Shown piece after piece: positions 34,879 to 58,253 of a stretch of 64,000 nt of DNA. A program made the position numbers and the translations under genes. The notes under the pieces are model-generated. The model worked only from the letters and a program-made list of their open reading frames with translations, was not told the DNA's origin and searched no databases. Origin of the DNA: a virus (taxonomy: Duplodnaviria > Heunggongvirae > Uroviricota > Caudoviricetes); the IMG/VR virus record IMGVR_UViG_3300034019_002140; one strand, written 5' to 3'. The first letter of the stretch is position 1. Every line of letters begins with the position of its first letter.

Positions 34879-37800
34879 ATGGGAAAAAATATTTTAATTG
34901 TTCCGAGTAATTTCACTGAGAGGACTGCTAACCGTACTCCATTTATAAGTTATGAGGGTACCACGGGTCAGGTTATTCTGACGGTTACACCTTCAGGTAA
35001 AATTAAATTCAGCGGTAATACTGTTGGTGATACAAATTTGATGACAGTAGACCCTGCAAATTCTACAGTTTCAGTAAACACTATTTTTGTAGGAAATTAC
35101 CTTGCAATAGGAGGGGTTCAGGTAATAAATGCCACAAACAATTGGATTGGACCCACAACAGGTATAGCTGGTTCTCAGGGTGCAAAAGGATTCAACGGAA
35201 ATACAGGTCCTACGGGTGCAATAGGTAACACAGGAGCACAAGGTGCTATTGGTGCTGCAGGCGCCACAGGACCTCAAGGTGCTCAAGGTACATTTGGGCC
35301 TAAGGGTGCTCAAGGAACTGCCGGAGCACAAGGAAATACGGGTGCTCAAGGTAACAATGGACCCAAGGGTGCCACAGGAGCACAAGGGTCAGCAGGTGCG
35401 CCAGGTAATACAGGTAACCCTGGACCTACAGGACAAAGTGGACACCCTGGTCCACAAGGACCAACGGGAGCCGTTGGTAATACAGGAGCACAGGGTGCGA
35501 TTGGGGTTACAGGACCCACAGGTAATACAGGTGCTCAAGGACCTGTAGGACCAACAGGTGGACAAGGTGCTCAAGGACCACAAGGAGCTCAAGGTCCAAA
35601 AGGATTTTCAGGTGCACAAGGTGCAACAGGAAACACAGGTGGAACAGGACCCACAGGAAATACAGGACATCCTGGCGCTCAGGGTGCTACAGGAAATCCT
35701 GGACCTACGGGTGTCACAGGGTCTCAAGGAGCCGTTGGACCCACCGGTGCTATAGGAGCTCAAGGACCCAAAGGAGCACAAGGGAATACTGGAAACACAG
35801 GGGCACAAGGAGCCACAGGAAATCCTGGTCCACAAGGTTTCACAGGTAATGTTGGTGCGGTAGGGCCCACAGGTGCGATTGGTCCAAAGGGACCACAAGG
35901 ACCTACAGGAAATACAGGTAATGTGGGACCACAAGGTGCCACAGGTACCACAGGCCCAACAGGTGATACAGGAGCTACAGGACCTGCAGGACCACAAGGT
36001 GCTGTGGGACCAAAAGGAGACACAGGTAATACGGGGGCTCAGGGTGCTGTGGGGCCACAAGGAGCAACTGGTCCGACAGGACTTTCAGGTGCTCAAGGTG
36101 CCCAAGGTGGGGTAGGACCGACAGGGGCTACAGGACCACAAGGAGCTCAAGGACCTGCGGGTAATACGGGTCATTCTGGTGCACAAGGTGCTACAGGACC
36201 AACAGGGCCTGGAGGTAACACAGGTGCTCAAGGGGCGGTTGGACCGAAAGGGGCTACAGGACCTCAGGGAGCTCAAGGACCCGCAGGTGGTACAGGTAAC
36301 ACAGGGGCTCAGGGTGCCACAGGACCACAAGGTTCGCAAGGGGCGGGTGGTGGAACAGGTCATCCAGGTGCCCAAGGTCCCCAAGGAGCGATAGGACCAC
36401 AAGGTTCACAAGGAGCCACAGGACACACTGGTGCTCAAGGCCCACAAGGTGCCACAGGACCACAAGGCTCACAAGGGGCTACAGGACATCCTGGTGCCCA
36501 AGGTAGTCAGGGTGCGGCCGGACCAAAAGGACCTAATGGATTCACAGGTCATCCTGGAGCGCAAGGACCGCAAGGTTCAGCGGGAGCAACGGGTGCTCAA
36601 GGTCAGACAGGTCATCCGGGGGCACAAGGTGCAGGTGGACCTACTGGGTCTCAAGGACAAGGGGGTGGTACAGGACATCCTGGAGCTCAAGGTGCCATAG
36701 GACCCAAAGGACCTCAAGGACCTACAGGTGCTACTGGCCATCCTGGTGCTCAAGGTGCTGGTGGAGGTACTGGTAACGAGGGGGCACCAGGTTTCACAGG
36801 ACATCCAGGTGCACAAGGTGCTACAGGACCAGGAGGTAGTCCGGGTGCTCAGGGTTCACAAGGTTCCCAAGGACCTCAAGGAGCTCAAGGAAATACCGGT
36901 CCGACCGGCGTACCGGGAGCTACGGGGCATCCTGGTGCTCAAGGAGCGGTCGGTCCAACTGGCCCACAAGGTCCGTCAGGTAATACAGGACATCCTGGTG
37001 CACAGGGAGCAACGGGTCCTACAGGACCTCAAGGAAATACAGGTGCCACGGGTGCTATTGGACCCCAAGGTGCGGGAGGTGCCACAGGCTCACAAGGGGC
37101 TGTAGGACCTCAAGGAGCAACTGGAGCCACAGGAGCCCAAGGTCCACAAGGTCCAGGTGGTCCTACAGGACCTGGCGGGGCACAAGGTGCTCAAGGAGGA
37201 GGAGGTGCCACAGGACCTCAAGGACCACAAGGTCCAAAGGGACCTCAGGGTGCTACAGGTCCTACAGGGGGTCCTGGTCCAACTGGACCACAAGGTCCTC
37301 AGGGACCAACAGGAGCACCTGGACCTACAGGTGCCACAGGACCACAAGGTCCTACAGGTGGTCAAGGTACACAAGGCTCATTAGGTGCAACAGGAGGGCA
37401 GGGTGCTCAAGGTTCCCAAGGAGCTGTTGGACCTGGAGGTGTAACATGTCAACTGAATAGTATTATTGCTCTTACAGGAAGTAGAAACCCATGTGTAGGT
37501 GTTTGTAATATCACTGTACCCAACGTTTATCCATACACTCAAACTGCTTACACAGCCACACAAAACAAATATTTCGATGCTACGAATTGTTCAAATGGTA
37601 CTTGTGATTGGAATACTTATAACTGGGAACAATGGAATAGTGCATGTTATTCATTAAACGCCACTTGTGGTAATGGTACCTATCAGCAGGCTTGTGCTTA
37701 TTCTGACGTGAAACTTAAAACAGGTATTGAAACCTTGAAAGATTCTCTTATAAAAATATTGGAAATAGAAACTGTTGAGTATGATTGGAACGAAAAAAAT

Positions 37801-38040
37801 TGGGGTACCAAAGAAGAGTATGAATATTTTGCTCAGATGGGAAGATTACATCAGATAGGTCTAATTGCACAAAACGTAAGAATTCATTTCCCTGAAGCTG
37901 TTGGAATCGGTCCTGATGGATATTATTACATTGACTACAAGAAATTAAATTCTGTTGTAGTTGAAGGTATAAAAGAACAACAAGTATTTATTGAAGAGAT
38001 AACTAAACAAGTAGACGAATTAGAAATTAAATTGAGATAA
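34879..38040 (+). CDS. Collagen-like fibre protein 1: N-terminal domain, ~800 aa of G-X-Y repeats, a Cys-rich knob, and a C-terminal peptidase-S74 intramolecular chaperone domain.
   Basis: Continuous G-X-Y triplets ([25 protein letters not shown]...). The C-terminus [12 protein letters not shown]...VEYDWN...IGLIAQNV...FPEAV...[20 protein letters not shown] matches the phage fibre intramolecular-chaperone domain. Confidence 0.8.
35140..37440 (+). repeat. Collagen-like G-X-Y triplet repeat array in fibre gene 1.
   Basis: 9-nt ggt-nnn-nnn periodicity over ~2.3 kb. Confidence 0.8.
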
Positions 38041-41024
38041 TGCCATCTAATGTAATTATATATCCTACCGGTAGAACGTGGAACACTGACCCTCATTTTA
38101 TTTTTGATGATGGAACTAATAAATTACAATTCAACGTTTTAACTGACGCAATAAGTCTGTCTGCTGGGTCAATTTCAAATAATTTTGTAATTGGTACAAA
38201 AGGTTCAGACAATGGTGTCACAACCTCAGGGGCTTCCGCACAGTCACTATATTTCAACGCCTCACAATTCATAGGTTCTGGAGGTGTTTGGGTCGGACCA
38301 ACTGCCGGTATCGCTGGTGCTCAGGGAGCTCAAGGTGCTCAGGGAGCCCAAGGTGGTCAGGGAGCTCAAGGAGCTCAAGGTGCAAATACAGGAGCTCAAG
38401 GTGCTACAGGTGCCCAAGGAGCAACAGGCGCACAAGGTGCGGCAAACACAACACAAGGTGCTCAAGGTACAATTGGGTCTCAAGGAGCTCAGGGTGCCAC
38501 AGGAGCTCAGGGTGGAAATACGGGTGCTCAAGGAGCCACAGGAGCTCAAGGTAACCAAGGAGCTCAAGGTGCTCAAGGAGGAACAGTTGGAGCTCAGGGT
38601 GCTCAGGGTGGTCAGGGAGCTCAAGGTGCTCAAGGTGCTCAAGGTGCAAACACAGGTGCTCAGGGTGCGACAGGTCCCCAAGGAGCCCAAGGAGCGGTAG
38701 GTGCTACAGGAGGAGTTCAAGGTGCTCAAGGTGCCGTCGGTGCCACAGGTGATTTAGGTGCTCAGGGAGCTCAAGGAGCCAATACCGGAGCCCAAGGTGC
38801 TCAAGGTGCACAGGGAACTCAAGGTGCACAAGGTGCTCAGGGAGGAAATACTGGTGCACAAGGTGCTCAGGGTACTCAGGGTACACAAGGTGCTACAGGT
38901 GCTCAAGGAGGAGTACAAGGTGCTCAAGGTGCTATAGGTACTACAGGACCACAAGGTGCTCAAGGGGCCCAAGGGGCAAACACAGGAGCTCAAGGTGCTC
39001 AAGGTGGTCAAGGTGCTCAAGGAGCTCAAGGTGCTCAAGGAGGAGTACAAGGTGCTCAAGGGGCTACAGGTCCTACGGGGGTACAAGGAGCACAAGGTGC
39101 ACAAGGAGGAGTACAAGGAGCACAAGGTGCAACAGGACCTCAAGGAGCTCAAGGGGCTCAGGGATTACAAGGTGGACTTCAAGGTGCCCAAGGTGCAACA
39201 GGTGCTCAAGGTGCACAAGGTTCTACAGGTGCTCAAGGAGGTACCCAAGGAGCTCAAGGTGCCACAGGACCACAAGGTGCACAAGGAGCAATAGGAGCTC
39301 AAGGAGGAGTACAAGGTGCTCAGGGTGCAACAGGAGCAGCGGGAGCTCAAGGTGCTCAAGGAGCCCAAGGTGCAAATACAGGTGCTCAAGGCGCCACAGG
39401 ACCTCAAGGTGCTCAGGGGGCGACAGGAGCCCAAGGGGGTGTACAAGGTGCTCAAGGCGCCACAGGTCCTCAAGGTGCTCAAGGTGCTCAGGGGGCTCAA
39501 GGTGCAAATACAGGAGCTCAGGGTGCTACAGGTCCTCAAGGTGCTCAAGGTGCTCAGGGAGCCCAGGGTGCCAGTCCAGGTGCTCAGGGCGCTCAAGGTC
39601 CAAAAGGACCTCAAGGTGCTCAAGGAGCCCAAGGTGGAAGTGCAGGTGCCACGGGTGCGCAAGGTGCAACAGGTCCTCAAGGAGCTCAAGGTGCCCAAAG
39701 TGGTATAACAGGACAGGCAGGAGCTCAGGGTGCTACAGGTCCCCAAGGGGCACAAGGTGCTCAAGGTGGAAGTGCCGGTGCTACAGGAGCAGTCGGTGCA
39801 CAAGGAGCTACAGGAGCACAAGGAGCCCAAGGTGCTAATCAAGGAGCACAAGGTGCTACGGGTGCTACAGGAGCTCAAGGTGCTCAAGGTGCTCAAGGTG
39901 CTAATCAAGGAGCCCAAGGTGCGACAGGTCCACAAGGTGCTCAGGGTTCACAGGGTGCACAAGGTGCTAATCAGGGAGCACAGGGGGCTCAAGGAGCTCA
40001 AGGTGCTCAAGGTTCTCAGGGAGCACAAGGAGCCAATCAGGGTGCACAAGGTGCTACAGGTCCACAAGGTGCACAAGGTGCAATTGGACCAAATAATACG
40101 ACACAAGGTGCTCAAGGTGCTCAGGGAGGTCAAGGTACTCAGGGAAGTCAAGGAGCACAGGGTGCTAACCAAGGCGCTCAAGGGGCACCTGGAGTTCAAG
40201 GAGCTCAAGGAGCACAAGGTGCACAGGGTGCTAATCAAGGGGCTCAGGGAGCACCTGGAGTTCAAGGTGCTCAAGGTGCTCAAGGTTCTCAAAGTGCTAC
40301 TTCGGGAGCACAAGGTTCTACAGGACCTCAAGGTGCTCAAGGTTCTACAGGACCCGGTCCTGGTCCGCAAGGAGCCCAAGGTCCACAAGGATTGACTGGA
40401 GGTGGAGGGAACACAGGTGCACAAGGGTCCCAAGGAGCTACAGGAGCCACGGGTCCTACAGGTGCTCCTGGTGGAACAGGAGCCACAGGTGCTCAAGGAG
40501 CCACAGGATTTGCTGGAAGTACTCAGGGTGCTCCAGGTGTACCAGGACCACAGGGGGCTCAAGGTCCGACAGGTGTTGGTGGTGCCACAGGCCCAACAGG
40601 CCCAACAGGTTTCAAGGGGAATACAGGCCCAACAGGCCCAACAGGTGCCACAGGTGCTCAGGGAGCACAAGGCGCTAAGTCAGATAAAAGATTAAAAGAT
40701 AATATAGTTGAATTCAAAGAACCTCTCACCCGTCTGAAACAAATCCAAGGTGTTAAATTTACTTGGGACCATGAACATCCTAAAATTAAATTTCATAAGC
40801 ACCTGAATGCTAAAGAAGCGTTCACAGGTGATACTTATGGATTCATAGCTCAAGATGTAGAAAAAGTATTTCCTGAGATTGTTGACACTGACCCAACTGA
40901 TGGATACAAATCTATGGATTATGGACTCTTGGTTAGTTTAGCCTTCGCATCAATTAAAGAGAATCAAAAAAGAATATTGTCAGTGAAAGATAGAATAAAT
41001 AGATTAAAACAAGTAGTGAACTAA
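38040..41024 (+). CDS. Collagen-like fibre protein 2 with a C-terminal S74 intramolecular chaperone domain.
   Basis: The ATG overlaps the upstream TAA (ATGA-type coupling). G-X-Y repeats are dominated by GAQ. The C-terminus is [32 protein letters not shown]...[15 protein letters not shown]...[18 protein letters not shown]. Confidence 0.8.
38290..40680 (+). repeat. Collagen-like G-X-Y triplet repeat array in fibre gene 2.
   Basis: ggtgctcaaggwgc units repeated. Confidence 0.8.
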
Positions 41025-44000
41025 TGGCATCATACGTAGTATATTCAGGGACGAGTTATCTAAATGCGTGTAATTCTGTGGCATCACAGACTATTTATAC
41101 ACCGTGTCCATCACTAAGTGGAGGTTGTGTAGTCTATACAGATGCAGGTTATACTAATGTTATTACTTTCTCTCCATTATTACCTAATTTATATCTAAAG
41201 GATTCTGTTGATACAACGGTTTGGAAGATAAATAGGACAGGAACTGTCACGGAGGTTAGAAAATGTACTGAATTTTCAGGTGATGAAAATATAATTGTTT
41301 ATCCTGATGGAGCCAATTTTCAACTTATAGATTCTGGAGGAACTGCCACTAACTGGTATATGGAGAATGGTGAGTTGAAATTTGGAACTTTAACTTCCAC
41401 TTTAGCAAGAATAAGTACTTCCTATCCAAACCTCAGAGTCAGTGGGGGGTCAATAACACTTACTAACAAACTTGCAAATGCCTCGGGAGATTTAATAAAT
41501 TCAACAGGATGGGTCGGAGCTAAATTACCTCAAGGTCCAACGGGTGCTCAAGGTTCACAAGGTTCTACTGGTGCTCAAGGAGCTCAAGGGGGTCAAGGAG
41601 CACAGGGTACCCAAGGTTCAACAGGTGCCCAAGGTTCTCAGGGTGCTCAAGGGGGACAAGGTGCTCAAGGTGCTCAAGGGTCACAAGGACCTACAGGTGC
41701 ACAAGGTTCACAAGGTGGTCAAGGTTCACAAGGCTCACAAGGTTTTACAGGTGCTCAGGGTTCACAAGGAGCTCAAGGAGGACAAGGTGCTCAGGGTTCA
41801 CAAGGAACTTTGGGACCCACAGGAGCTCAAGGTTCTCAAGGTGGTCAAGGAGCCCAAGGAGCCCAAGGTTCAACAGGTGCTCAAGGTTCGCAAGGAGCAC
41901 AGGGTGGACAGGGCGCTCAAGGTTCACAAGGGGCTAAAGGTCTCACAGGTGCTCAAGGGGCACAAGGTGGACAAGGTGCCCAAGGTGCTCAAGGTTCCCA
42001 AGGTACAACAGGAGCCCAAGGTTCCCAAGGGGGACAAGGTGCTCAAGGTGCTCAAGGCGCAGTTGGTCCTACAGGTGCTCAAGGAGCTCAGGGTGGACAA
42101 GGGGCTCAAGGAGCTCAAGGGGCTGTCGGTCTCACAGGAGCTCAAGGAGCTCAAGGTGGGCAAGGTGCTCAAGGAGCACAAGGGGCTCTCGGTCCTACAG
42201 GAGCTCAAGGTTCCCAAGGTGGACAGGGTGCTCAAGGAGCACAAGGTTCACAAGGTTTAACAGGTGCGCAAGGGTCCCAAGGTGGTCAAGGAGCTCAAGG
42301 AGCTCAGGGAGGACAAGGTGCTCAAGGTGCCCAAGGTCCTAAAGGTCCACAAGGTGCTCAAGGAGCCCAAGGTGCTCAAGGTTCAACAGGAGCCCAAGGT
42401 TCCCAAGGTGGAACAGGAGCCCAAGGTGCTCAAGGTTCAACAGGAGCCCAAGGTTCACAAGGTTCACAAGGTGGAACAGGAGCTCAAGGAGCCCAAGGTT
42501 CAACAGGAGCCCAAGGTGCTCAAGGTTCCCAAGGAGGACAAGGTGCCCAAGGGGCTCAAGGTACAACAGGTGCCCAAGGAGCTCAAGGAGCTACAGGAGG
42601 TCAAGGTGCTCAGGGTTCTCAAGGACCCACAGGAGCCCAAGGTTCTCAAGGTGCCGGAGGAGGACAAGGTGCACAAGGAGCTCAAGGTATAGTTGGAGCC
42701 CAAGGTGCTCAAGGTGGAGGTGGAGGACAGGGTGCACAAGGAGCACAAGGAACGACAGGTCCCGTAGGTGCACAAGGTTCACAAGGTGGGCAAGGTGCTC
42801 AAGGTTCCCAAGGTGCACAAGGTGCCACAGGAGCTCAAGGTTCTCAGGGCGTCGCCGGAGCTCAAGGTGCTCAAGGTGCTCAAGGAGCTGTTGGTAGTCA
42901 AGGTTCACAAGGAGGACAGGGTGCACAAGGAGCTCAAGGTTCACAAGGAGCTCAAGGTGCAACTGGTCCTGGTGGCGGACAAGGTGCTCAGGGAGCACAA
43001 GGAGCCACAGGTTCACAAGGTGCTCAAGGTGGAGGTGGTGGACAAGGTGCCCAAGGTGCTCAAGGGCCCGTCGGTTCACAAGGTTTTCAAGGAACAACTG
43101 GAGGTCAAGGTGCACAAGGTGCGCAAGGACCTACTGGACCTACAGGTATCACAGGACCTAAAGGGGGTCAAGGTGCACAAGGTGCTCAGGGAGGACAAGG
43201 TGCACAGGGACCACAAGGTCATATCGGTGCAAACGGTGCAACTGGTGTTCCTGGTCCTATTGGTCCCAAAGGACCTACGGGTCCTACGGGAGGTCAAGGT
43301 GCTCAAGGAGCTCAAGGACCTGGTGGTGCTCAAGGGGCTCAAGGTCCTACGGGAGGTCAAGGTGCTCAAGGAGCTCAAGGACCTGGTGGTGCTCAAGGGG
43401 CTCAAGGTCCTACGGGAGGTCAAGGTTCCCAAGGTGGAGGAGGAGCTCAAGGGGCTCAGGGTCCAACAGGACCTGGAGGTGCTCAAGGTGCTCAAGGAGC
43501 TCAAGGTCCCAAAGGTCCAATAGGTGGACAAGGTTCTCAAGGTCCCACAGGGGCTCAGGGTACCGCCGGAGGACAAGGTTCTCAAGGCGGTGGTGGTGCC
43601 CAAGGTGCTCAAGGTGCTCAAGGTCCGCAAGGAGGCCAAGGTGCTCAAGGCGGTGGTGGTGCCACAGGAGCTCAAGGACCTCAGGGGGGTCAAGGTGCCC
43701 AAGGACCACAAGGTGGTCAAGGTCCACAAGGTGCACAAGGTGCAACCGGTCCAAATGGTTTACAAGGTGCTCAAGGTGCACAAGGTACCACTGGTTCTGA
43801 CCTAAGATTAAAAAAGGACGTAAAAGAAATACAATCCCCACTAGAAAAAGTCCTGAAATTGAGAGGTGTTTCATTCTATTGGAATAAATTAAATGATGAA
43901 ACATCCCAATCAGGTAAACATGATATTGGATTCATTGCCCAAGAAATAGGTCATATATTACCTGAATTGGTTTTCAAGAAAAACACCGAGAACGCATATT

Positions 44001-44131
44001 TCATGGTAAAATATGCTGAAGTAATAGCTGTTTGTTTAGAAGCCATTAAAGAACAATCCTTGATTTTGGAATCTAAAGAAATAAAACTTGATGAGTTAGA
44101 GACAATAGCCAAGGAAAGAGGACTTATTTAG
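41024..44131 (+). CDS. Collagen-like fibre protein 3 with a longer N-terminal domain and a C-terminal S74 intramolecular chaperone domain.
   Basis: The ATG overlaps the upstream TAA. ~170-aa N-terminal domain, then G-X-Y repeats. The C-terminus is [31 protein letters not shown]...[16 protein letters not shown]...[15 protein letters not shown]. Confidence 0.8.
41535..43795 (+). repeat. Collagen-like G-X-Y triplet repeat array in fibre gene 3.
   Basis: ggtgctcaaggttcacaagg units repeated. Confidence 0.8.
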
Positions 44132-54994: not shown

Positions 54995-55405
54995 ATGAAA
55001 AAAAGTTATGCGGGTGTAGTGGTAAAACACAAAAAGAAAATTTTATTTTGTAAAAGAAGTTCTAAAGTAGATTATCCAGGTGTTTGGTCAATTCCTGGAG
55101 GTACAATGGAGGAAGGCGAGTCTCCCATCCAAACAGCACGTAGAGAGTTTTTTGAAGAAATGGCTGTTGACATAGATAGTGAAACATTGAACAAAGTTGG
55201 TGTAATTCCAAGATATTCGAGAGACGGTAAGAAGTTGAAGGGTCAGATGCATGTCTTTGAGACAGAACCAATTGAAAAACTCATTCCTGATTTATCAATT
55301 GCGATTGACGGTGAAGAACATACTGAATGTGGTTATTATACTCTCGAAGAAATGCCACCTTCCAAAATTGGAGAGAACCTATACAATCTTTTAAAAAATA
55401 TGTGA
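54995..55405 (+). CDS. Nudix hydrolase.
   Basis: Nudix box GGTMEEGESPIQTARREFFEEMAV (Gx5Ex7REUxEExxU). Confidence 0.75.
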   Translation: MKKSYAGVVVKHKKKILFCKRSSKVDYPGVWSIPGGTMEEGESPIQTARREFFEEMAVDIDSETLNKVGVIPRYSRDGKKLKGQMHVFETEPIEKLIPDLSIAIDGEEHTECGYYTLEEMPPSKIGENLYNLLKNM

Positions 55406-55679
55406 TATGATTTGGTATATGATTGTTGGTTTAGTTTTCACAGGTATTGTAATTTGGTTTGAGTTACGTGAAGAAAAAGAAAAAAATCTTTGAAAAAATA
55501 TTTTCACCAAAGGTTACTTTTTTCACTTTTCGGTATATTTATATGTTCTTACCCGAAAGGGTGAACATCCCCACAGATTCAAGTTTTCAACCGAGAGGTT
55601 GGTAAAAAAACCTGAATCATACGAGACAGAAAAAGTCTCAAAAAAAGTCCCACAAGTTTGGTGTTTCAAAAAAATGTCT

Positions 55680-55687
55680 TATCTTTG
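55680..55687 (+). promoter_or_regulatory. -7 promoter motif TATCTTTG (extended TCTTATCTTTGT) inside the non-coding GC-rich island.
   Basis: The extended sequence is identical to the motif at 56105. It is overlapped by a 9-bp inverted repeat (AGTCCCACAA at 55649 and TTGTGGGACT at 55685). Confidence 0.4.
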
Positions 55688-55791
55688 TGGGACTTTATTA
55701 TCAAAAGAAGTTCTTTAACATATTTCTACTCAAGGTTCAACCAGAGCATGACTTGGATGGTGACACGGGGACTTGAGTAGTTTTATTATAG

Positions 55792-55863
55792 GGCGAGCGG
55801 GAGGTAAGGTATCTCATTGGTCTCATAAGCCAATTGAACTTGGTTCAATTCCAAGGCGTCGCA
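55792..55863 (+). ncRNA. tRNA-like element (anticodon CAT, Met/Ile-like) with a non-canonical acceptor stem.
   Basis: D-arm GAGG-TAAGGTA-TCTC (A14, G18 G19, A21). Anticodon arm TTGGT-CUCAUAA-GCCAA. 5-nt variable loop. T-arm CTTGG-TTCAATT-CCAAG. The proposed acceptor strands GCGAGCG/GCGTCGC pair at only 4 of 7 positions, and an alternative 8-bp hairpin (AATTGAAC/GTTCAATT) competes with the T-arm. Confidence 0.2.
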
Positions 55864-56104
55864 ACAATACAGGTGAAGACTGTGGTGGAACCCCACGGTA
55901 TATGAATCCCAAAGACGCCGTCTTGATTCGCGGTATCAGAGCGGGGAGGGTATAGTTACTATAAGTCAGGAGTAATTAACCAACGACGAAAATGTAACCA
56001 CCAATGTAGGAATATGTTGGTCATGATGTACAAAAGGGTACAAAAAGCCTGTAAATTTTTTATAAAAAACTCTTATAAAATTTGACAGTCTGAAAATGAC
56101 TTCT

Positions 56105-56112
56105 TATCTTTG
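56105..56112 (+). promoter_or_regulatory. Second -7 promoter motif TATCTTTG (extended TCTTATCTTTGT) inside the non-coding island.
   Basis: Flanked by the short inverted repeat GTCTTA...TAAGAC. Confidence 0.4.
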
Positions 56113-57014
56113 TAAGACAATTGAGGGAAATCGTTTCCGAATGTTCGGAGTAAAGATATTTCGGTTTCCTTCAATCTTTGATAGTTCTTTGATTCAAGAT
56201 ATTGGCCGCCTATGGTCGTTAAATAAACTACGAAAGTAGTATAAAGTAGGAACCCCTGGTTTGGTGGTTCCCGCGGTTTCCAAAAGGGAGCTCGAGTAGG
56301 CAAGCAGGATATCACAACACCTTTAGTACCGAGGGTAACACTGTAGGGAACGTGGTGTGGTGACCAAGCGATTCGGGTCGTTTGGTTGAGGTCGGAAGAC
56401 CAACAAGAATCACCTGTAGAATCGATGTAAGAAGTGGTAGTATCCACTGTCACAATTGCGTCATTCAATATCAAAGTTGACTTAAAAACCGAAAGGTAAG
56501 TTTTATTACAGGTGGTGCTGATAGAACCTTAGCAAATGCTCTACCAAGAGGTCTGTTATGAAGTTGACTCGAAGTATGGAGGTGGGGACACTTCAGAGGG
56601 TAGTTTAGTATCGGGTCGTTCAAAAGATGACTTGGCTTCAGACGGGCCACTACCTTCATAATCCGTAAACCAACTTTGGTCTATGCAATGTCCAAAACAT
56701 TAATTAAATCAAGGAAAAGTGCTCGTCAGTTGTGTGTGACAGGTCACTACATAGTAATGAGATGTTCATTGCCGTGAAGGGTCCCAAGCCCGACACGATT
56801 TTCACGAAAGTTCTCTAATCCCGCAAGGATGAATTGGCTCGGCAGGGTCGAAGAGTGATGAGTAATGGGAGAGTTGCAGACAACTTCAGGATTGGTTAAT
56901 CTAATTGACCGTGACTGAGAGTTACTTCTCAAAAGGAAGTGGAAACAGAGGGAACCAAATAATCCTCCTAAAGACTCTTGTCAAGACTTGTATTCTCAGA
57001 GTTTTCGCCTAACC

Positions 57015-57046
57015 CTGACCGTCTCTACGGTTGGGGTTTTTTATTT
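57015..57046 (+). terminator. Rho-independent terminator closing the + strand ncRNA locus.
   Basis: GACCGTCTCTACGGTT stem-loop followed by GGGGTTTTTTATTT. Confidence 0.55.
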
Positions 57047-58253
57047 AACAAGGGTATGGTCCTGAAACAACCGTAACAGCACCAATAGTAACTGTATATC
57101 CACTTCCATCCGTACATATGGTGAGCTGTCCACTAAATGTTTGTGTAAAATAACTACCACCACAATCGAACCATTCTATTGATGCACTTCCACCACCAGC
57201 ATCCAATACATAACCAACACACGTAGAAGGTGTTATTGATGGAGTTGGAGTTACTGTCGGTGTTTCGGCTGGAGTACCTGTATTTGTTGGAGTGACGGGT
57301 GGAGTCGTTGGCGGAGTAGCGGTATTTGTAGGTGTCGTAGTATTTGTTGGGGTCACTGTGGGAGTTGTAGTATTAGTGGGAGTTACCGAAGGTGTAGGTC
57401 CAATCGTTGGGGTAACAGAAGGAGTTTGAGTTTGTGTTGCGGTGACTGACGGGGTTGGTGTAGATGTTCTAGTCGGGGTTGGAGTTGCGGTTGCTTGGCT
57501 TGTAGGAGTTGGTGTCGGAATGTTTGCATTTGTAAGTTCACAAAGACTAATTCTTACACCGCCATATTGTATACTTGGTGGAGATGAAAATGTTATTTCT
57601 GTGAAAGGGGAAGTTGATTGAACTAAAAATCTTGCTAATCCATCAGTATTTACCGCTGTGATTGTACCGTTGTTGATATTGAAATTACAACCTGTACATT
57701 GAGTTATTATTGGAGTTTGAGAATTGTTTAAAGTTATGGTAACTCTATCTCCATTCGGGAAAGCATCACCATTCCAAACACCTGAATTGAACATCAATGA
57801 TGAGATGGCTTGACTAAATCTAAAAGTAACAGTTGCACCTGACCCGAAAGACACGACACCAGTTCCTGGTCCAGGTTTTATTGTAATTGGGATTTCTTGA
57901 CAAGAGTAGTTGTTTGGACCATAGGTAAATGTATTAGTTGAACATACTGAGTTAAAAGTATAACCAGTTATTTGTATACCATTACTTGTTACCACTTGAC
58001 CATTACAAGGGGTATTTATTACATTACATGTAGGACAATTATTCAAATCCCTTTGAAACCATTCTTCACTAATTACTAAAGAATTTTCGTAGAAATTACT
58101 TAAAGAGAAGGTATCGTAAATTGCCCAAACATTTTTTGTTTGATTTGGTAAGAGTGGGACTTGGTTTTCAAATTCGCTTGAATCACATTTTCTATAACTA
58201 AATGTTACAAGAGTGTTACCCGTGTTGGTTAGAGTATATTTTTTACAATTCAC
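57045..58253 (-). CDS. PT-linker modular Cys-rich structural/adhesin-like protein. Its C-terminal domain is paralogous to the C-terminus of gene 3518..5623.
   Basis: Long linker PTPTPTSQATATPTPTRTSTPTPSVTATQTQTPSVTPT.... C-terminal SIEWFDCGGSYFTQTFSGQLTICTDGSGYTVTIG. Confidence 0.55.
   Translation of the reverse strand: MNCKKYTLTNTGNTLVTFSYRKCDSSEFENQVPLLPNQTKNVWAIYDTFSLSNFYENSLVISEEWFQRDLNNCPTCNVINTPCNGQVVTSNGIQITGYTFNSVCSTNTFTYGPNNYSCQEIPITIKPGPGTGVVSFGSGATVTFRFSQAISSLMFNSGVWNGDAFPNGDRVTITLNNSQTPIITQCTGCNFNINNGTITAVNTDGLARFLVQSTSPFTEITFSSPPSIQYGGVRISLCELTNANIPTPTPTSQATATPTPTRTSTPTPSVTATQTQTPSVTPTIGPTPSVTPTNTTTPTVTPTNTTTPTNTATPPTTPPVTPTNTGTPAETPTVTPTPSITPSTCVGYVLDAGGGSASIEWFDCGGSYFTQTFSGQLTICTDGSGYTVTIGAVTVVSGPYPC

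What the first reader, a model, noticed from the sequence alone, without database searches (positions are those of the whole stretch)
55440..57046. 1.5-kb GC-rich island with no credible protein-coding ORF: promoter-driven structured-RNA locus containing a tRNA-like element
Between the Nudix gene and the minus-strand adhesin gene lies ~1.5 kb whose GC content is visibly higher than the ~33% of the surrounding genome. It has no credible ORF. The ORF-track hits 55773..55955 and the minus ORFs 56073..56932 are short and overlap one another. Two copies of the extended promoter motif TCTTATCTTTGT (55676 and 56101) each sit within short inverted repeats. A strong intrinsic terminator at 57015-57046 closes the region. 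Inside it is a cloverleaf-like element with good D-arm, anticodon arm (CAT) and T-arm but a poorly paired acceptor stem, plus many GC-rich hairpins. In phages, islands like this are usually tRNA clusters, tmRNA-like elements, group I introns or regulatory RNAs. I could not assign this one to any of those classes. The fragment AACGACGAAAAT resembles the start of a tmRNA tag reading frame, but no ALAA-type ending follows. This may therefore be an undescribed phage ncRNA.
Basis: seen in the sequence. Interest (0 to 1): 0.65.

Follow-up and report, generated by a model that had tools for sequence, protein, structure and literature searches.

The report
Phage GOLLD RNA with companion RNAs
The gene-free stretch is a cluster of phage RNA genes whose main member is a GOLLD RNA, an already described giant structured RNA that assembles into RNA-only nanocages; ahead of it lie an odd tRNA-like gene and two conserved small RNA motifs that no database names.

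Summary
The observation mostly holds. About 1.35 kb (55690-57046, + strand) has no credible ORF, carries two promoter-like sites and ends in a strong terminator.

The interpretation "undescribed ncRNA" is wrong for the main part. Window 56596-57002 matches Rfam GOLLD (RF02032) at 314.7 bits (threshold 150, E 3e-89). The 400 nt upstream (56202-56595) are the GOLLD 5' domain. The whole RNA is colinear and 65% identical with GOLLD env-38, whose 14-mer nanocage was solved by cryo-EM. In 45 diverse relatives, 162 of 227 predicted pairs show compensatory changes.

The tRNA-like element (55793-55863, anticodon CAU) is real. It belongs to a conserved phage lineage with an irregular acceptor stem. ARAGORN rejects it; Rfam tRNA gives 33 bits.

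The "tmRNA-like" fragment lies in a separate ~185-nt structured RNA (module C, 55867-56055). Module C is found in at least 46 phage contigs, always inside tRNA arrays. It has 19 covarying pairs and no Rfam match. A fourth element, a hairpin with an invariant 22-nt core (motif H, 55726-55781), occurs in 49 contigs.

The promoters are of the Bacteroidota type (TTTG / TAnnTTTG).

Verdict: a new member of a known kind, with two possibly new small RNA motifs as a side product.

The parts
55641..55699 (.). Inverted repeat (AAAAAAGTCCCACAA / TTGTGGGACTTTATT) bracketing promoter P1. It could be an operator, or a terminator-like hairpin for read-through from the Nudix operon.
   Evidence: the repeat finder pair I1: 15 nt, 93% complementary, 29 nt between the arms. 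Its function is inferred only.
55657..55687 (+). Promoter P1, Bacteroidota sigma-A type: -33 TTTG (55657-55660), 19-nt spacer, -7 box TATCTTTG (55680-55687). The inferred start of transcription is about 55692.
   Evidence: The pattern TTTGN{18,21}TANNTTTG occurs 14 times in the window against 2.97 expected; no shuffle out of 100 reaches 14. Several copies lie directly upstream of ORF starts. The -7 consensus TAnnTTTG is from PMC9723704. Similar sequence recurs upstream of tRNA/GOLLD units in other contigs.
55726..55781 (+). Motif H: a hairpin (CUACUCAAG / CUUGAGUAG) enclosing the invariant core AACCAGAGCAUGACUUGGAUGG (55739-55760). It is an unclassified small RNA motif.
   Evidence: The inverted repeat I4 is 9 nt and 100% complementary. 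The exact 20-mer occurs in 49 viral contigs. In 39 distinct contexts the flanks pair with each other: median z -2.9, 37 different stem sequences. The motif is always on the tRNA strand of tRNA arrays. There is no Rfam match.
55793..55863 (+). Atypical tRNA-like gene with anticodon CAU ('class 2'). It has normal D, anticodon and T arms. The acceptor stem has 6 pairs plus one bulged G in the 3' strand. No CCA is encoded.
   Evidence: Rfam tRNA gives 33.1 bits (threshold 29); ARAGORN does not call it. Twelve distinct homologues keep the odd acceptor stem through compensatory changes, and their anticodon and T stems covary. The relative in Aeromonas phage Akh-2 is annotated 'tRNA-Pseudo-CAT'.
55867..56055 (+). 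Module C: an unclassified ~185-nt structured RNA. It is a multi-helix junction closed by the stem ACAGG / CCUGU. Its apical loop is palindromic (UUCGCGGU here).
   Evidence: At least 46 viral contigs carry it. RNAalifold predicts 41 pairs, 19 with changes on both sides. 98.2% of cells are paired against 33-43% when partners are slid, and 0 of 500 shuffles reach the observed values. My own covariance model R1 scores the window copy at 207.5 bits. It always lies inside tRNA arrays on the tRNA strand. There is no Rfam match, no match in the isolate-phage collection and no sequence match in the literature search.
56081..56112 (+). Promoter P2 of the GOLLD gene: -33 TTTG (56081-56084), 20-nt spacer, -7 box TATCTTTG (56105-56112). 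The inferred start of transcription is about 56117.
   Evidence: The pattern scan finds it. The sigma-70 scan also hits TTGACA-17-TATCTT here. The same motif lies within 300 nt upstream of GOLLD in 28 of 44 diverse relatives against 0.15 expected.
56118..56201 (+). GOLLD leader: a long hairpin (UUGAGGGAAACCG... / ...CGGUUUCCUUCAA) that is not conserved. It lies between the transcription start and the conserved core.
   Evidence: The MFE fold is -22.8 kcal/mol. There is no conservation in the 46-sequence alignment. The cryo-EM construct of env-38 starts at the equivalent of 56202.
56202..56595 (+). GOLLD 5' domain. In env-38 this domain forms the cap of the nanocage.
   Evidence: It is colinear with env-38 residues 3-420. 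The motif TTAAATAAACNNCGAAAGNNGNATAAAGT is shared with at least 118 viral contigs. It aligns to the huge phages LR745206 and LR756502. Compensatory changes are dense.
56596..57002 (+). GOLLD 3' domain, the universally conserved half. The variable A-rich linker lies at about 56658-56717. The long-range helix 56728-56737 / 56876-56885 is marked as a pseudoknot in Rfam.
   Evidence: Rfam RF02032: 314.7 bits, E 3e-89, model positions 1-416 of 416, not truncated. Pairs covary in relatives. The loops CCGCAAG and GCUCGGCAGGGU are identical to those of env-38.
57011..57046 (+). Intrinsic terminator closing the GOLLD gene: a 12-bp stem, a 4-nt loop and a T run.
   Evidence: The terminator scan finds it. 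Alignments to the closest relatives (L217, L200, L159, L096, L009, L021, L108) run through to 57045-57048.

Best explanation
The island is an RNA-gene cluster of an uncultured freshwater phage. The promoter type suggests a Bacteroidota host. It holds two co-oriented transcription units.

Unit 1 starts at promoter P1 (about 55692). It encodes a small hairpin RNA (motif H), an atypical tRNA-like RNA with anticodon CAU, and a ~185-nt structured RNA (module C).

Unit 2 starts at promoter P2 (about 56117) and ends at the terminator (57046). It encodes a ~930-nt GOLLD RNA made of a variable leader hairpin, a 5' domain (56202-56595) and a 3' domain (56596-57002).

Shown: the identity and completeness of the GOLLD RNA; the conservation and covariation of all four RNAs; and the enrichment of the promoter motif in this phage and upstream of related GOLLD genes.

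Inferred:
- By analogy with its homologue env-38 (65% identical, same domains, same symmetric kissing-loop sequences), this GOLLD folds into two domains and self-assembles into a closed RNA-only 14-mer cage during lytic growth.
- The tRNA-like element serves, as in tRNA arrays, as a processing signal for RNase P and RNase Z, which release motif H and module C as stable RNAs. Whether it is also charged is open.

The cellular role of GOLLD is unknown in the field. I think the most likely role is in translation or tRNA handling during infection, because of its constant company of tRNA(CAU), tmRNA and tRNA arrays. I put that specific role at about 0.3-0.4.
For: GOLLD identity:
- Rfam gives 314.7 bits against a gathering score of 150, with the full model matched.
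- The RNA is colinear with env-38 over 782 nt at 65% identity, covering both domains. The env-38 sequence is from the supplement of PMC12286853.
- In a 46-sequence alignment of relatives that are less than 90% identical to one another, there are 227 consensus pairs. 162 have compensatory changes and 95% of cells are paired.
- GOLLD also occurs in LR745206 and LR756502 (287 and 275 bits).

Known properties of GOLLD (phage or prophage location, proximity to tRNAs, 5' and 3' domains, 14-mer D7 cage, expression rising at lysis, env-38 lying downstream of a Met-tRNA) come from PMC12286853 and PMC5737381.

Promoters. Terminator.

Linkage to tRNA(CAU): the closest relatives have a tRNA-Met(CAU) 200-300 nt upstream. 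Among 43 diverse relatives, 13 have one within 500 nt upstream. Among 41, 7 have one within 300 nt downstream. Together these are 20 of the 29 adjacent tRNAs.

Companion RNAs: tRNA-like; module C; motif H.

No protein signal.
Against: There is no expression data for this phage. Promoters, transcript ends and processing are all inferred from sequence.

Cage assembly has been shown only for env-38 in vitro. This RNA is 35% different from env-38 and carries an extra leader hairpin and a terminator hairpin.

There is no canonical terminator between module C and P2. Units 1 and 2 may therefore be one read-through transcript.

The tRNA-like element fails ARAGORN, so RNase P or RNase Z recognition is not assured.

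The GC excess that drew attention to the region is modest.
Confidence: 0.9

Rival explanations
1. The island is a decayed tRNA array: pseudo-tRNAs and junk left after tRNA genes were lost. It has no function of its own apart from GOLLD.
For: The window has no canonical tRNA at all. The tRNA-like element scores only 33 bits, against 50-70 bits for real phage tRNAs. A relative is annotated as a pseudo-tRNA. Elsewhere module C and motif H lie inside tRNA arrays.
Against: The odd acceptor stem is kept by compensatory changes in 12 distinct homologues. In L280 and L185 it stands next to a canonical tRNA-Met, so the two types are distinct. Module C is 98% paired with 19 covarying pairs. Motif H keeps an invariant core with 37 different outer stems. 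This pattern indicates purifying selection, not decay.
Confidence: 0.07
2. Part of the island is a tmRNA-like or two-piece tmRNA element. On this view AACGACGAAAAT starts a tag reading frame.
For: The fragment resembles the start of the E. coli tag-coding sequence (own knowledge). Related phages do encode tmRNAs, and module C directly follows the tmRNA gene in 5 contigs.
Against: ARAGORN, which also looks for permuted tmRNA genes (own knowledge of the program), finds none in the window. Module C has no T arm and no G-U acceptor stem. Its conserved core CGAAAAUGUAAC is partly buried in a helix: UUAC pairs with GUAA, with a covarying flanking pair. The reading frame does not end in a hydrophobic, alanine-rich tag. 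The true tmRNAs next to module C have ordinary tags (...VAA...VAVA...IAA), so module C is a separate gene.
Confidence: 0.02
3. The region encodes one or more small or frameshifted proteins. The apparent RNA structure would then be incidental.
For: ORFs of 133 aa (56073-56474, minus strand) and 60-62 aa exist.
Against: These ORFs have no Pfam hits. They are not kept open in relatives: the median longest stop-free stretch is 87 aa, the minimum 52 aa. Substitutions follow base-pair covariation, not codon structure. The covariance-model match has E = 3e-89.
Confidence: 0.01

Closest known systems
GOLLD RNA (Rfam RF02032; Weinberg et al. 2009), in particular GOLLD env-38 (PDB 9MEE; Kretsch et al. 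2025, PMC12286853)
   Same: The 3' domain matches the family model in full (314.7 bits). The 5' domain is of the same type as in env-38; both start with (U)GGCCGC-UAUGGUCGU-AAAUAAA-ACGAAAGU. The two RNAs are colinear with 65% identity over about 780 nt. Both have a variable A-rich linker after the first 3'-domain hairpin. The loops CCGCAAG and GCUCGGCAGGGU are identical. Both are phage-borne and lie downstream of a tRNA with anticodon CAU.
   Different: The window RNA has its own Bacteroidota-type promoter, an extra non-conserved leader hairpin of about 85 nt, and its own intrinsic terminator. The upstream tRNA is an atypical one. Another structured RNA (module C) is inserted between the tRNA-like gene and GOLLD. 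Oligomerisation was not tested.
ROOL RNA (Rfam; Weinberg et al. 2017, PMC5737381)
   Same: ROOL is a large ornate phage or prophage RNA found near tRNAs. It forms an RNA-only cage (an 8-mer).
   Different: Its sequence and fold are unrelated. There is no ROOL match in the window.
Phage tRNA(CAU) genes annotated as pseudo-tRNAs, for example 'tRNA-Pseudo-CAT' of Aeromonas phage Akh-2 (MK318083)
   Same: It is 88.9% identical to the window tRNA-like element over 54 nt. It has the same D arm and anticodon arm (GGGAGGUAAGGUAUCUCA..GGUCUCAUAAGCC) and a weak acceptor stem.
   Different: The host lineage (T5-like phage of Aeromonas) and the context (inside a large tRNA array, with no GOLLD next to it) differ. 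The acceptor defect is two U-U mismatches there and a bulged G here.
Phage T4 species 1 and species 2 RNAs (rnaC, rnaD)
   Same: They are stable non-tRNA RNAs of 139 and 119 nt, encoded directly after a tRNA in a phage tRNA cluster. Their function is still unknown, and they are released by tRNA-processing enzymes (own knowledge). They are the functional precedent for module C and motif H.
   Different: No sequence or structure similarity was found: the module C covariance model finds nothing in the T4 tRNA region.
tmRNA (ssrA)
   Same: tmRNA is encoded in the same RNA islands of related phages, sometimes 1-43 nt upstream of module C.
   Different: Nothing in the window meets tmRNA criteria.

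Membership tests
GOLLD RNA (RF02032) | The score against the curated covariance model reaches the gathering threshold (150 bits) over the full model. | tested here: met
   314.7 bits, E 3e-89, model positions 1-416 of 416, not truncated, window 56596-57002 +.
GOLLD RNA (RF02032) | A structured 5' domain of about 400 nt lies directly upstream of the conserved 3' domain, giving a total of about 800 nt or more. | tested here: met
   56202-56595 aligns with residues 3-420 of env-38 and with more than 100 viral contigs. Stems are supported by compensatory changes. The conserved core 56202-57002 is 801 nt.
GOLLD RNA (RF02032) | A long-range helix (marked as a pseudoknot in the Rfam consensus) and multi-stem junctions are present in the 3' domain. 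| tested here: met
   The cmscan alignment pairs 56728-56737 with 56876-56885, with one non-standard pair. The same helix is recovered with covariation in relatives.
GOLLD RNA (RF02032) | A variable, poorly conserved linker follows the first hairpin of the 3' domain. It is disordered in the cryo-EM structure and sometimes holds tRNAs. | tested here: met
   About 56658-56717 is A-rich and aligned with low posterior probability. It maps to env-38 497-538. No tRNA lies inside the GOLLD gene, here or in the 45 relatives.
GOLLD RNA (RF02032) | The genomic setting is a phage or prophage, near tRNA genes. | tested here: met
   The window carries a virion structural protein, an SbcC-like nuclease and collagen-like fibre proteins. 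A tRNA-like(CAU) gene ends about 340 nt upstream of the conserved GOLLD core (about 250 nt upstream of the inferred GOLLD start). Relatives have tRNA-Met(CAU) adjacent.
GOLLD RNA (RF02032) | The RNA self-assembles into a homo-14-mer cage through kissing loops and A-minor bridges. | not testable with these tools
   Only indirect evidence is available. The two hairpin loops of the junction that carries the symmetric kissing loops in env-38 have identical sequences here (CCGCAAG, GCUCGGCAGGGU). Residue numbering could not be checked exactly: my copy of env-38, taken from the PDF text, has 815 nt, while the paper numbers residues up to 833.
GOLLD RNA (RF02032) | Expression rises during the lytic cycle. 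| not testable with these tools
   This is reported for a Lactobacillus prophage (cited in PMC12286853). There are no data for this phage.
tRNA | A cloverleaf with a 7-bp acceptor stem, recognised by tRNA finders. | tested here: not met
   ARAGORN finds none. The acceptor has 6 pairs plus a bulged G (5' GCGAGC, 3' GCGUCGC).
tRNA | The Rfam tRNA model threshold is reached, the D loop has GG, the T loop reads UUCRANN, and the anticodon loop has U33 and purine 37. | tested here: met
   33.1 bits against a threshold of 29. The D loop is UAAGGUA, the T loop UUCAAUU and the anticodon loop CUCAUAA.
tRNA | The RNA is aminoacylated and used in translation. | not testable with these tools
   Conservation with compensatory changes in 12 homologues argues for a function but not for which one.
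tmRNA | A tRNA-like domain with a T arm and G-U acceptor, plus a tag reading frame with a resume codon that ends in a hydrophobic tail and a stop codon. | tested here: not met
   ARAGORN finds no tmRNA in the window, although it finds canonical tmRNAs in 12 related loci. Module C lacks a T arm, and its AUGUAA is partly paired.
Any Rfam 15 family (for module C and motif H) | A match at E <= 10 in the window, or E <= 0.1 in 11 homologous loci. | tested here: not met
   Only tRNA and GOLLD match.

The most novel reading that the evidence does not exclude
Module C (55867-56055) and motif H (55726-55781) are two undescribed classes of structured RNA that live in the tRNA/tmRNA/GOLLD 'RNA islands' of freshwater phages. 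They would be released from tRNA-array transcripts by tRNA-processing enzymes.

Module C may itself self-associate. Its apical loop is always a palindrome at the same position: CGCG, GCGC, CCGG, UCGCGA, UCUAGA, CUCGCGAG, AUCUAGAU or AUCGCGAU. The two central, adjacent bases switch together. This is the same signature used to infer intermolecular kissing loops in OLE and GOLLD.

If so, these phages would carry a toolkit of co-encoded self-assembling or tRNA-mimicking RNAs, and the conserved cassette motif H - tRNA(CAU) - GOLLD would be a functional unit.
Probability: 0.45. Interest if true: 0.65.

Novelty: new member of a known kind. Interest (0 to 1): 0.42.

Why it matters
GOLLD is one of the largest and least understood bacterial or phage RNAs, and its function is still unknown after the 2025 cage structures.

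This locus places a complete GOLLD of the structurally solved type in an abundant freshwater phage. Its neighbouring Nudix protein is indexed in 325 blocks of the assembly collection.

The locus has clear sequence-predicted transcription signals of the Bacteroidota type. That points to a host phylum for a large environmental GOLLD clade and gives defined transcript boundaries for experiments.

The recurring company is a concrete lead to function. GOLLD sits with tRNA(CAU) in a normal and an atypical form, with tmRNA, and with two further conserved RNAs of unknown class. This suggests GOLLD works with the translation apparatus.

The two unnamed motifs are ready-made candidates for new RNA families.

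Tried and rejected
- tRNA and tmRNA search with ARAGORN on the whole window found nothing, so there is no tRNA cluster or tmRNA here.
- A permissive Rfam scan (E <= 10) of 55300-57150 gave only GOLLD and tRNA above noise. The other rows (sar, telomerase, L10 leader and so on) are far below their thresholds, and most overlap the terminator hairpin. No group I intron, ribozyme, 6S, SRP or RNase P RNA was found.
- Megablast of 24 kb of the window against isolate phages gave no match. Blastn of module C against the same collection at E <= 1 gave no match.
- My first viral scan, with a 16-base pattern from the GOLLD 3' domain, returned mostly chance hits. Few of L003-L120 aligned. The 24-base 5'-domain pattern worked.
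- I considered module C as a mini RNase P RNA (AAGUCGGG resembles CR-I), an SRP RNA, a 6S RNA, a Y RNA or a T-loop-containing tRNA mimic. I rejected each by inspection: the defining pairings or loops are absent. These comparisons rest on my own knowledge of consensus sequences, not on a tool.
- A homology test of module C against T4 rnaC/rnaD with model R1 gave no hit.
- A genome-contig scan for module C gave only a 2.3-kb MAG contig that looks like a phage fragment (a true hit, 195 bits) and one chance match in Paeniclostridium with no model hit. Module C therefore has no cultured host.
- A simple count of 6-nt palindromes in the module C loop region is not above shuffles (15 of 34 observed against a mean of 10.9). 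The argument for a kissing loop rests only on the fixed position and the coordinated central changes, and it remains weak.
- The 2009 GOLLD paper could not be read. Facts about GOLLD are taken from PMC12286853 and PMC5737381.
- A full-text search for the conserved sequences of module C and motif H found no paper.
Full report
**What is at the coordinates**

Between the Nudix gene (54995-55405; PHROG and Pfam NUDIX) and the minus-strand 402-aa gene (57045-58253) there is no credible coding sequence, apart from a 28-aa ORF at 55407-55493. That ORF is called as a gene on the source contig.

The remaining ORFs are short and overlapping and have no Pfam match. They are not kept open in relatives: the median longest stop-free stretch in the ~950-nt GOLLD region is 87 aa.

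TCTTATCTTTGT occurs exactly twice in the 64-kb window, at 55677 and 56102. A 12-bp terminator hairpin with a T run lies at 57011-57046.

The GC excess is real but modest. The stated interval is 40.7% GC, and the RNA part 55690-57046 is 42.2%, against a window mean of 36.5%. The stated interval is at the 83rd percentile of equal-sized windows.

**The main element is a GOLLD RNA**

A gathering-threshold Rfam scan of the whole window gives two hits.
- GOLLD (RF02032) at 56596-57002 +: 314.7 bits (threshold 150), E 3e-89, complete model.
- tRNA at 55793-55863 +: 33.1 bits (threshold 29).

The Rfam model covers only the universally conserved 3' half of GOLLD. The 5' half is also here.
- Blastn finds the upstream 400 nt in two huge uncultured phages, LR745206 and LR756502. 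Both carry GOLLD (287 and 275 bits) and align from about 56200 onward.
- Dozens of these contigs align end to end with window 56166/56196-57046 at 64-91% identity.
- I aligned the window with 45 relatives that are less than 90% identical to one another and ran RNAalifold. It gave 227 consensus pairs, 162 with compensatory changes, and 95% of cells paired. Conservation starts sharply at 56202.

The sequence of GOLLD env-38 comes from the supplement of PMC12286853. Its 14-mer D7 nanocage was solved by cryo-EM (PDB 9MEE). It aligns colinearly with window 56202 to about 57000 at 65% identity over 782 positions. The alignment covers the 5' domain (env-38 1-420), the disordered linker (497-538, about window 56679-56715) and the 3' domain. 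The hairpin loops CCGCAAG and GCUCGGCAGGGU are identical.

This is therefore a full-length GOLLD of the structurally characterised type.

**Transcription signals**

This fits TAnnTTTG, the -7 box of sigma-A promoters in Flavobacteria (PMC9723704). Each copy has TTTG 19-20 nt upstream.

The combined pattern TTTG-N18-21-TAnnTTTG occurs 14 times in the window against 2.97 expected; the largest shuffle count is 8. Several copies lie directly in front of ORF starts (8598, 28946, 58726, 62920).

Within 300 nt upstream of the conserved GOLLD core, the same pattern is present in 28 of 44 diverse relatives against 0.15 expected. It lies a median of 100 nt before the core; in the window the distance is 90 nt.

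GOLLD therefore has its own promoter (P2, 56081-56112), with an inferred start near 56117. A non-conserved leader hairpin (56118-56201) follows, and the gene has its own terminator. The promoter type suggests a Bacteroidota host. That is an inference.

**The tRNA-like element**

55793-55863 folds as a cloverleaf with a normal D arm, an anticodon arm (loop CUCAUAA) and a T arm (loop UUCAAUU). The acceptor stem has six pairs and a bulged G. ARAGORN does not call it.

It is not a private pseudogene. Twelve distinct homologues share the 6-nt 5' strand and 7-nt 3' strand. They keep pairing by compensatory changes, for example G3-C to A3-U and C6-G to G6-C. Their anticodon and T stems covary freely.

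In L280 and L185 this 'class 2' gene stands in tandem with a canonical tRNA-Met(CAU) that has a C1xA72 mismatch, which resembles initiator tRNA. The two are therefore different genes.

A relative in the cultured Aeromonas phage Akh-2 is annotated tRNA-Pseudo-CAT.

tRNA(CAU) is the characteristic neighbour of this GOLLD clade.
- The closest relatives have one 200-300 nt upstream.
- Among diverse relatives, 13 of 43 have one within 500 nt upstream and 7 of 41 within 300 nt downstream. Together these are 20 of the 29 adjacent tRNAs.
- This matches the report that env-38 lies downstream of a Met-tRNA.

**Module C**

In contig L199 the tRNA-like gene abuts the GOLLD promoter directly. Window 55868-56063 is absent there, but it is found elsewhere in L133 and L149.

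This ~185-nt segment is a family of its own. The pattern TTACTATAAG-N16-26-CGAAAATGTAA finds 46 viral contigs.

A MAFFT alignment of 34 sequences gives an RNAalifold structure of 41 pairs in 9 helices, a multi-helix junction closed by ACAGG/CCUGU. Nineteen pairs change on both sides. 98.2% of cells are paired, against 33-43% when partners are slid by 1-3 columns. No shuffle out of 500 reaches the observed values.

Module C always lies in or at the edge of a tRNA array, on the tRNA strand. It usually abuts tRNA-Thr, Asn or Met upstream and tRNA-Asp or Glu downstream. In five contigs it follows a canonical tmRNA gene by 1-43 nt.

The conserved core is CGAAAAUGUAAC, and its GUAA pairs with an upstream UUAC.

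No match was found in:
- Rfam;
- isolate phages;
- the T4 tRNA region, tested with my covariance model;
- the literature, searched by sequence.

In 185,579 reference genomes it occurs only in one small MAG contig that looks like phage DNA.

Its P3 apical loop is a palindrome at the same position in every member, in eight variants with coordinated central changes. That hints at an intermolecular kissing loop. A simple shuffle test of palindrome frequency is not significant, so this remains a hypothesis.

**Motif H**

Upstream of the tRNA-like gene, 55726-55781 is a perfect 9-bp hairpin. It encloses AACCAGAGCAUGACUUGGAUGG.

The exact 20-mer is present in 49 viral contigs. In 39 distinct contexts the flanks pair with each other: median z is -2.9 against shuffles, with 37 different stem sequences. 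The motif is always on the tRNA strand. It is often 31-40 nt upstream of a tRNA(CAU), or about 26 nt downstream of a tRNA.

L328 shows the cassette motif H - tRNA-Met - GOLLD. Motif H has no Rfam match, and I could not assign a function.

**How it most likely works**

Shown: four conserved structured RNAs, two promoter-type motifs and one terminator, all on the + strand.

Inferred:
- P1 drives motif H, the tRNA-like RNA and module C. As in phage tRNA clusters (T4 rnaC/rnaD are the annotated precedent), the tRNA-shaped element would direct RNase P and RNase Z cuts that release the neighbours as stable RNAs.
- P2 drives GOLLD. By homology with env-38, GOLLD would assemble into a closed RNA-only cage.
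- With no strong terminator after module C, read-through from P1 into GOLLD is possible.

The biological role of GOLLD is unknown in the literature. Proposals include encapsulating tRNAs or ribosomal components, and expression rises at lysis. The constant association with tRNA(CAU), tmRNA and tRNA arrays seen here favours a link to translation.

**Comparison and novelty**

The island is a new, unannotated member of the known GOLLD family. It is not a new kind of RNA. The tmRNA idea is rejected, and the pseudogene idea is rejected.

What may be new:
- Module C and motif H are unnamed conserved RNAs.
- An atypical tRNA(CAU) lineage is conserved across phages.
- A large freshwater GOLLD clade carries Bacteroidota-type promoters.

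**Limits**

All transcript boundaries and processing steps are predictions. The covariation statistics do not correct for phylogeny. The module C and motif H families were collected with exact patterns, so their invariant cores are partly a result of how they were found. The env-38 sequence was read from PDF text and has 815 nt, while the paper numbers residues up to 833, so residue-level mapping is approximate.

Noticed in passing
window 55867-56055 (+); homologues e.g. L133:2661-2843, L149:37-219, L280:9115-9304, L291:2972-3160(-): Module C is a ~185-nt structured RNA of phage tRNA arrays with 19 covarying pairs and no Rfam, isolate-phage or literature match. Its apical loop is always palindromic (CGCG, UCGCGA, UCUAGA, CCGG and others), which suggests loop-loop dimerisation.
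   Followed up: yes
window 55726-55781 (+); 49 viral contigs, e.g. L096:7784, L280:8908, L328:1930(-): Motif H is a hairpin with a freely covarying outer stem around an invariant 22-nt core, AACCAGAGCAUGACUUGGAUGG. It is always on the tRNA strand and often 31-40 nt upstream of a tRNA(CAU). Its function is unknown. I did not find what the invariant core binds or pairs with.
   Followed up: partly
L280:8955-9113, L185:10801-10960: Two different tRNA(CAU) genes stand in tandem upstream of GOLLD. One is the atypical class with a bulged acceptor stem. The other is canonical with a C1xA72 mismatch, which resembles initiator tRNA. This suggests the phages supply distinct CAU-anticodon RNAs.
   Followed up: partly
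L241:1192-1775, L246:6795-7378, L259:11322-11905, L249:13120-13745, L278:3785-4419: Related phages encode canonical tmRNAs, with tags such as GETFAKLSAIGLIREESVVAA and ATSNVAVA, immediately upstream of module C. tmRNA genes occur in 26% of module C loci and 32% of motif H loci, against 10% of the other GOLLD loci.
   Followed up: partly
window 55407-55493 (+): A 28-aa ORF (MIWYMIVGLVFTGIVIWFELREEKEKNL) with a hydrophobic N-terminal half starts 2 nt after the Nudix stop codon. It is called as a gene on the JGI contig and has no Pfam match.
   Followed up: partly
window 55641-55699: A 15-nt inverted repeat brackets promoter P1. It could be an operator. In read-through RNA from the Nudix operon it could form a large-loop hairpin followed by a U-rich tract.
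   Followed up: no
window 34879-44131 (+): Three tandem ~1000-aa genes each carry collagen triple-helix repeats and a C-terminal endosialidase-chaperone (Peptidase_S74) domain. They are probably tail fibres. They account for the highest-GC stretch of the window, up to 60% near 35.7-37.3 kb.
   Followed up: partly
L284 (JGI 3300008120, contig Ga0114355_1000082, 72,847 nt): This public contig carries the same Nudix gene and an identical RNA island. It ends at the equivalent of about window 56089, between module C and the GOLLD promoter. A related but different GOLLD locus (L280, about 80% identical) comes from the same sample, so the break is probably an assembly break between co-occurring strains.
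   Followed up: no
The label 'adhesin' is unverified.
   Followed up: partly
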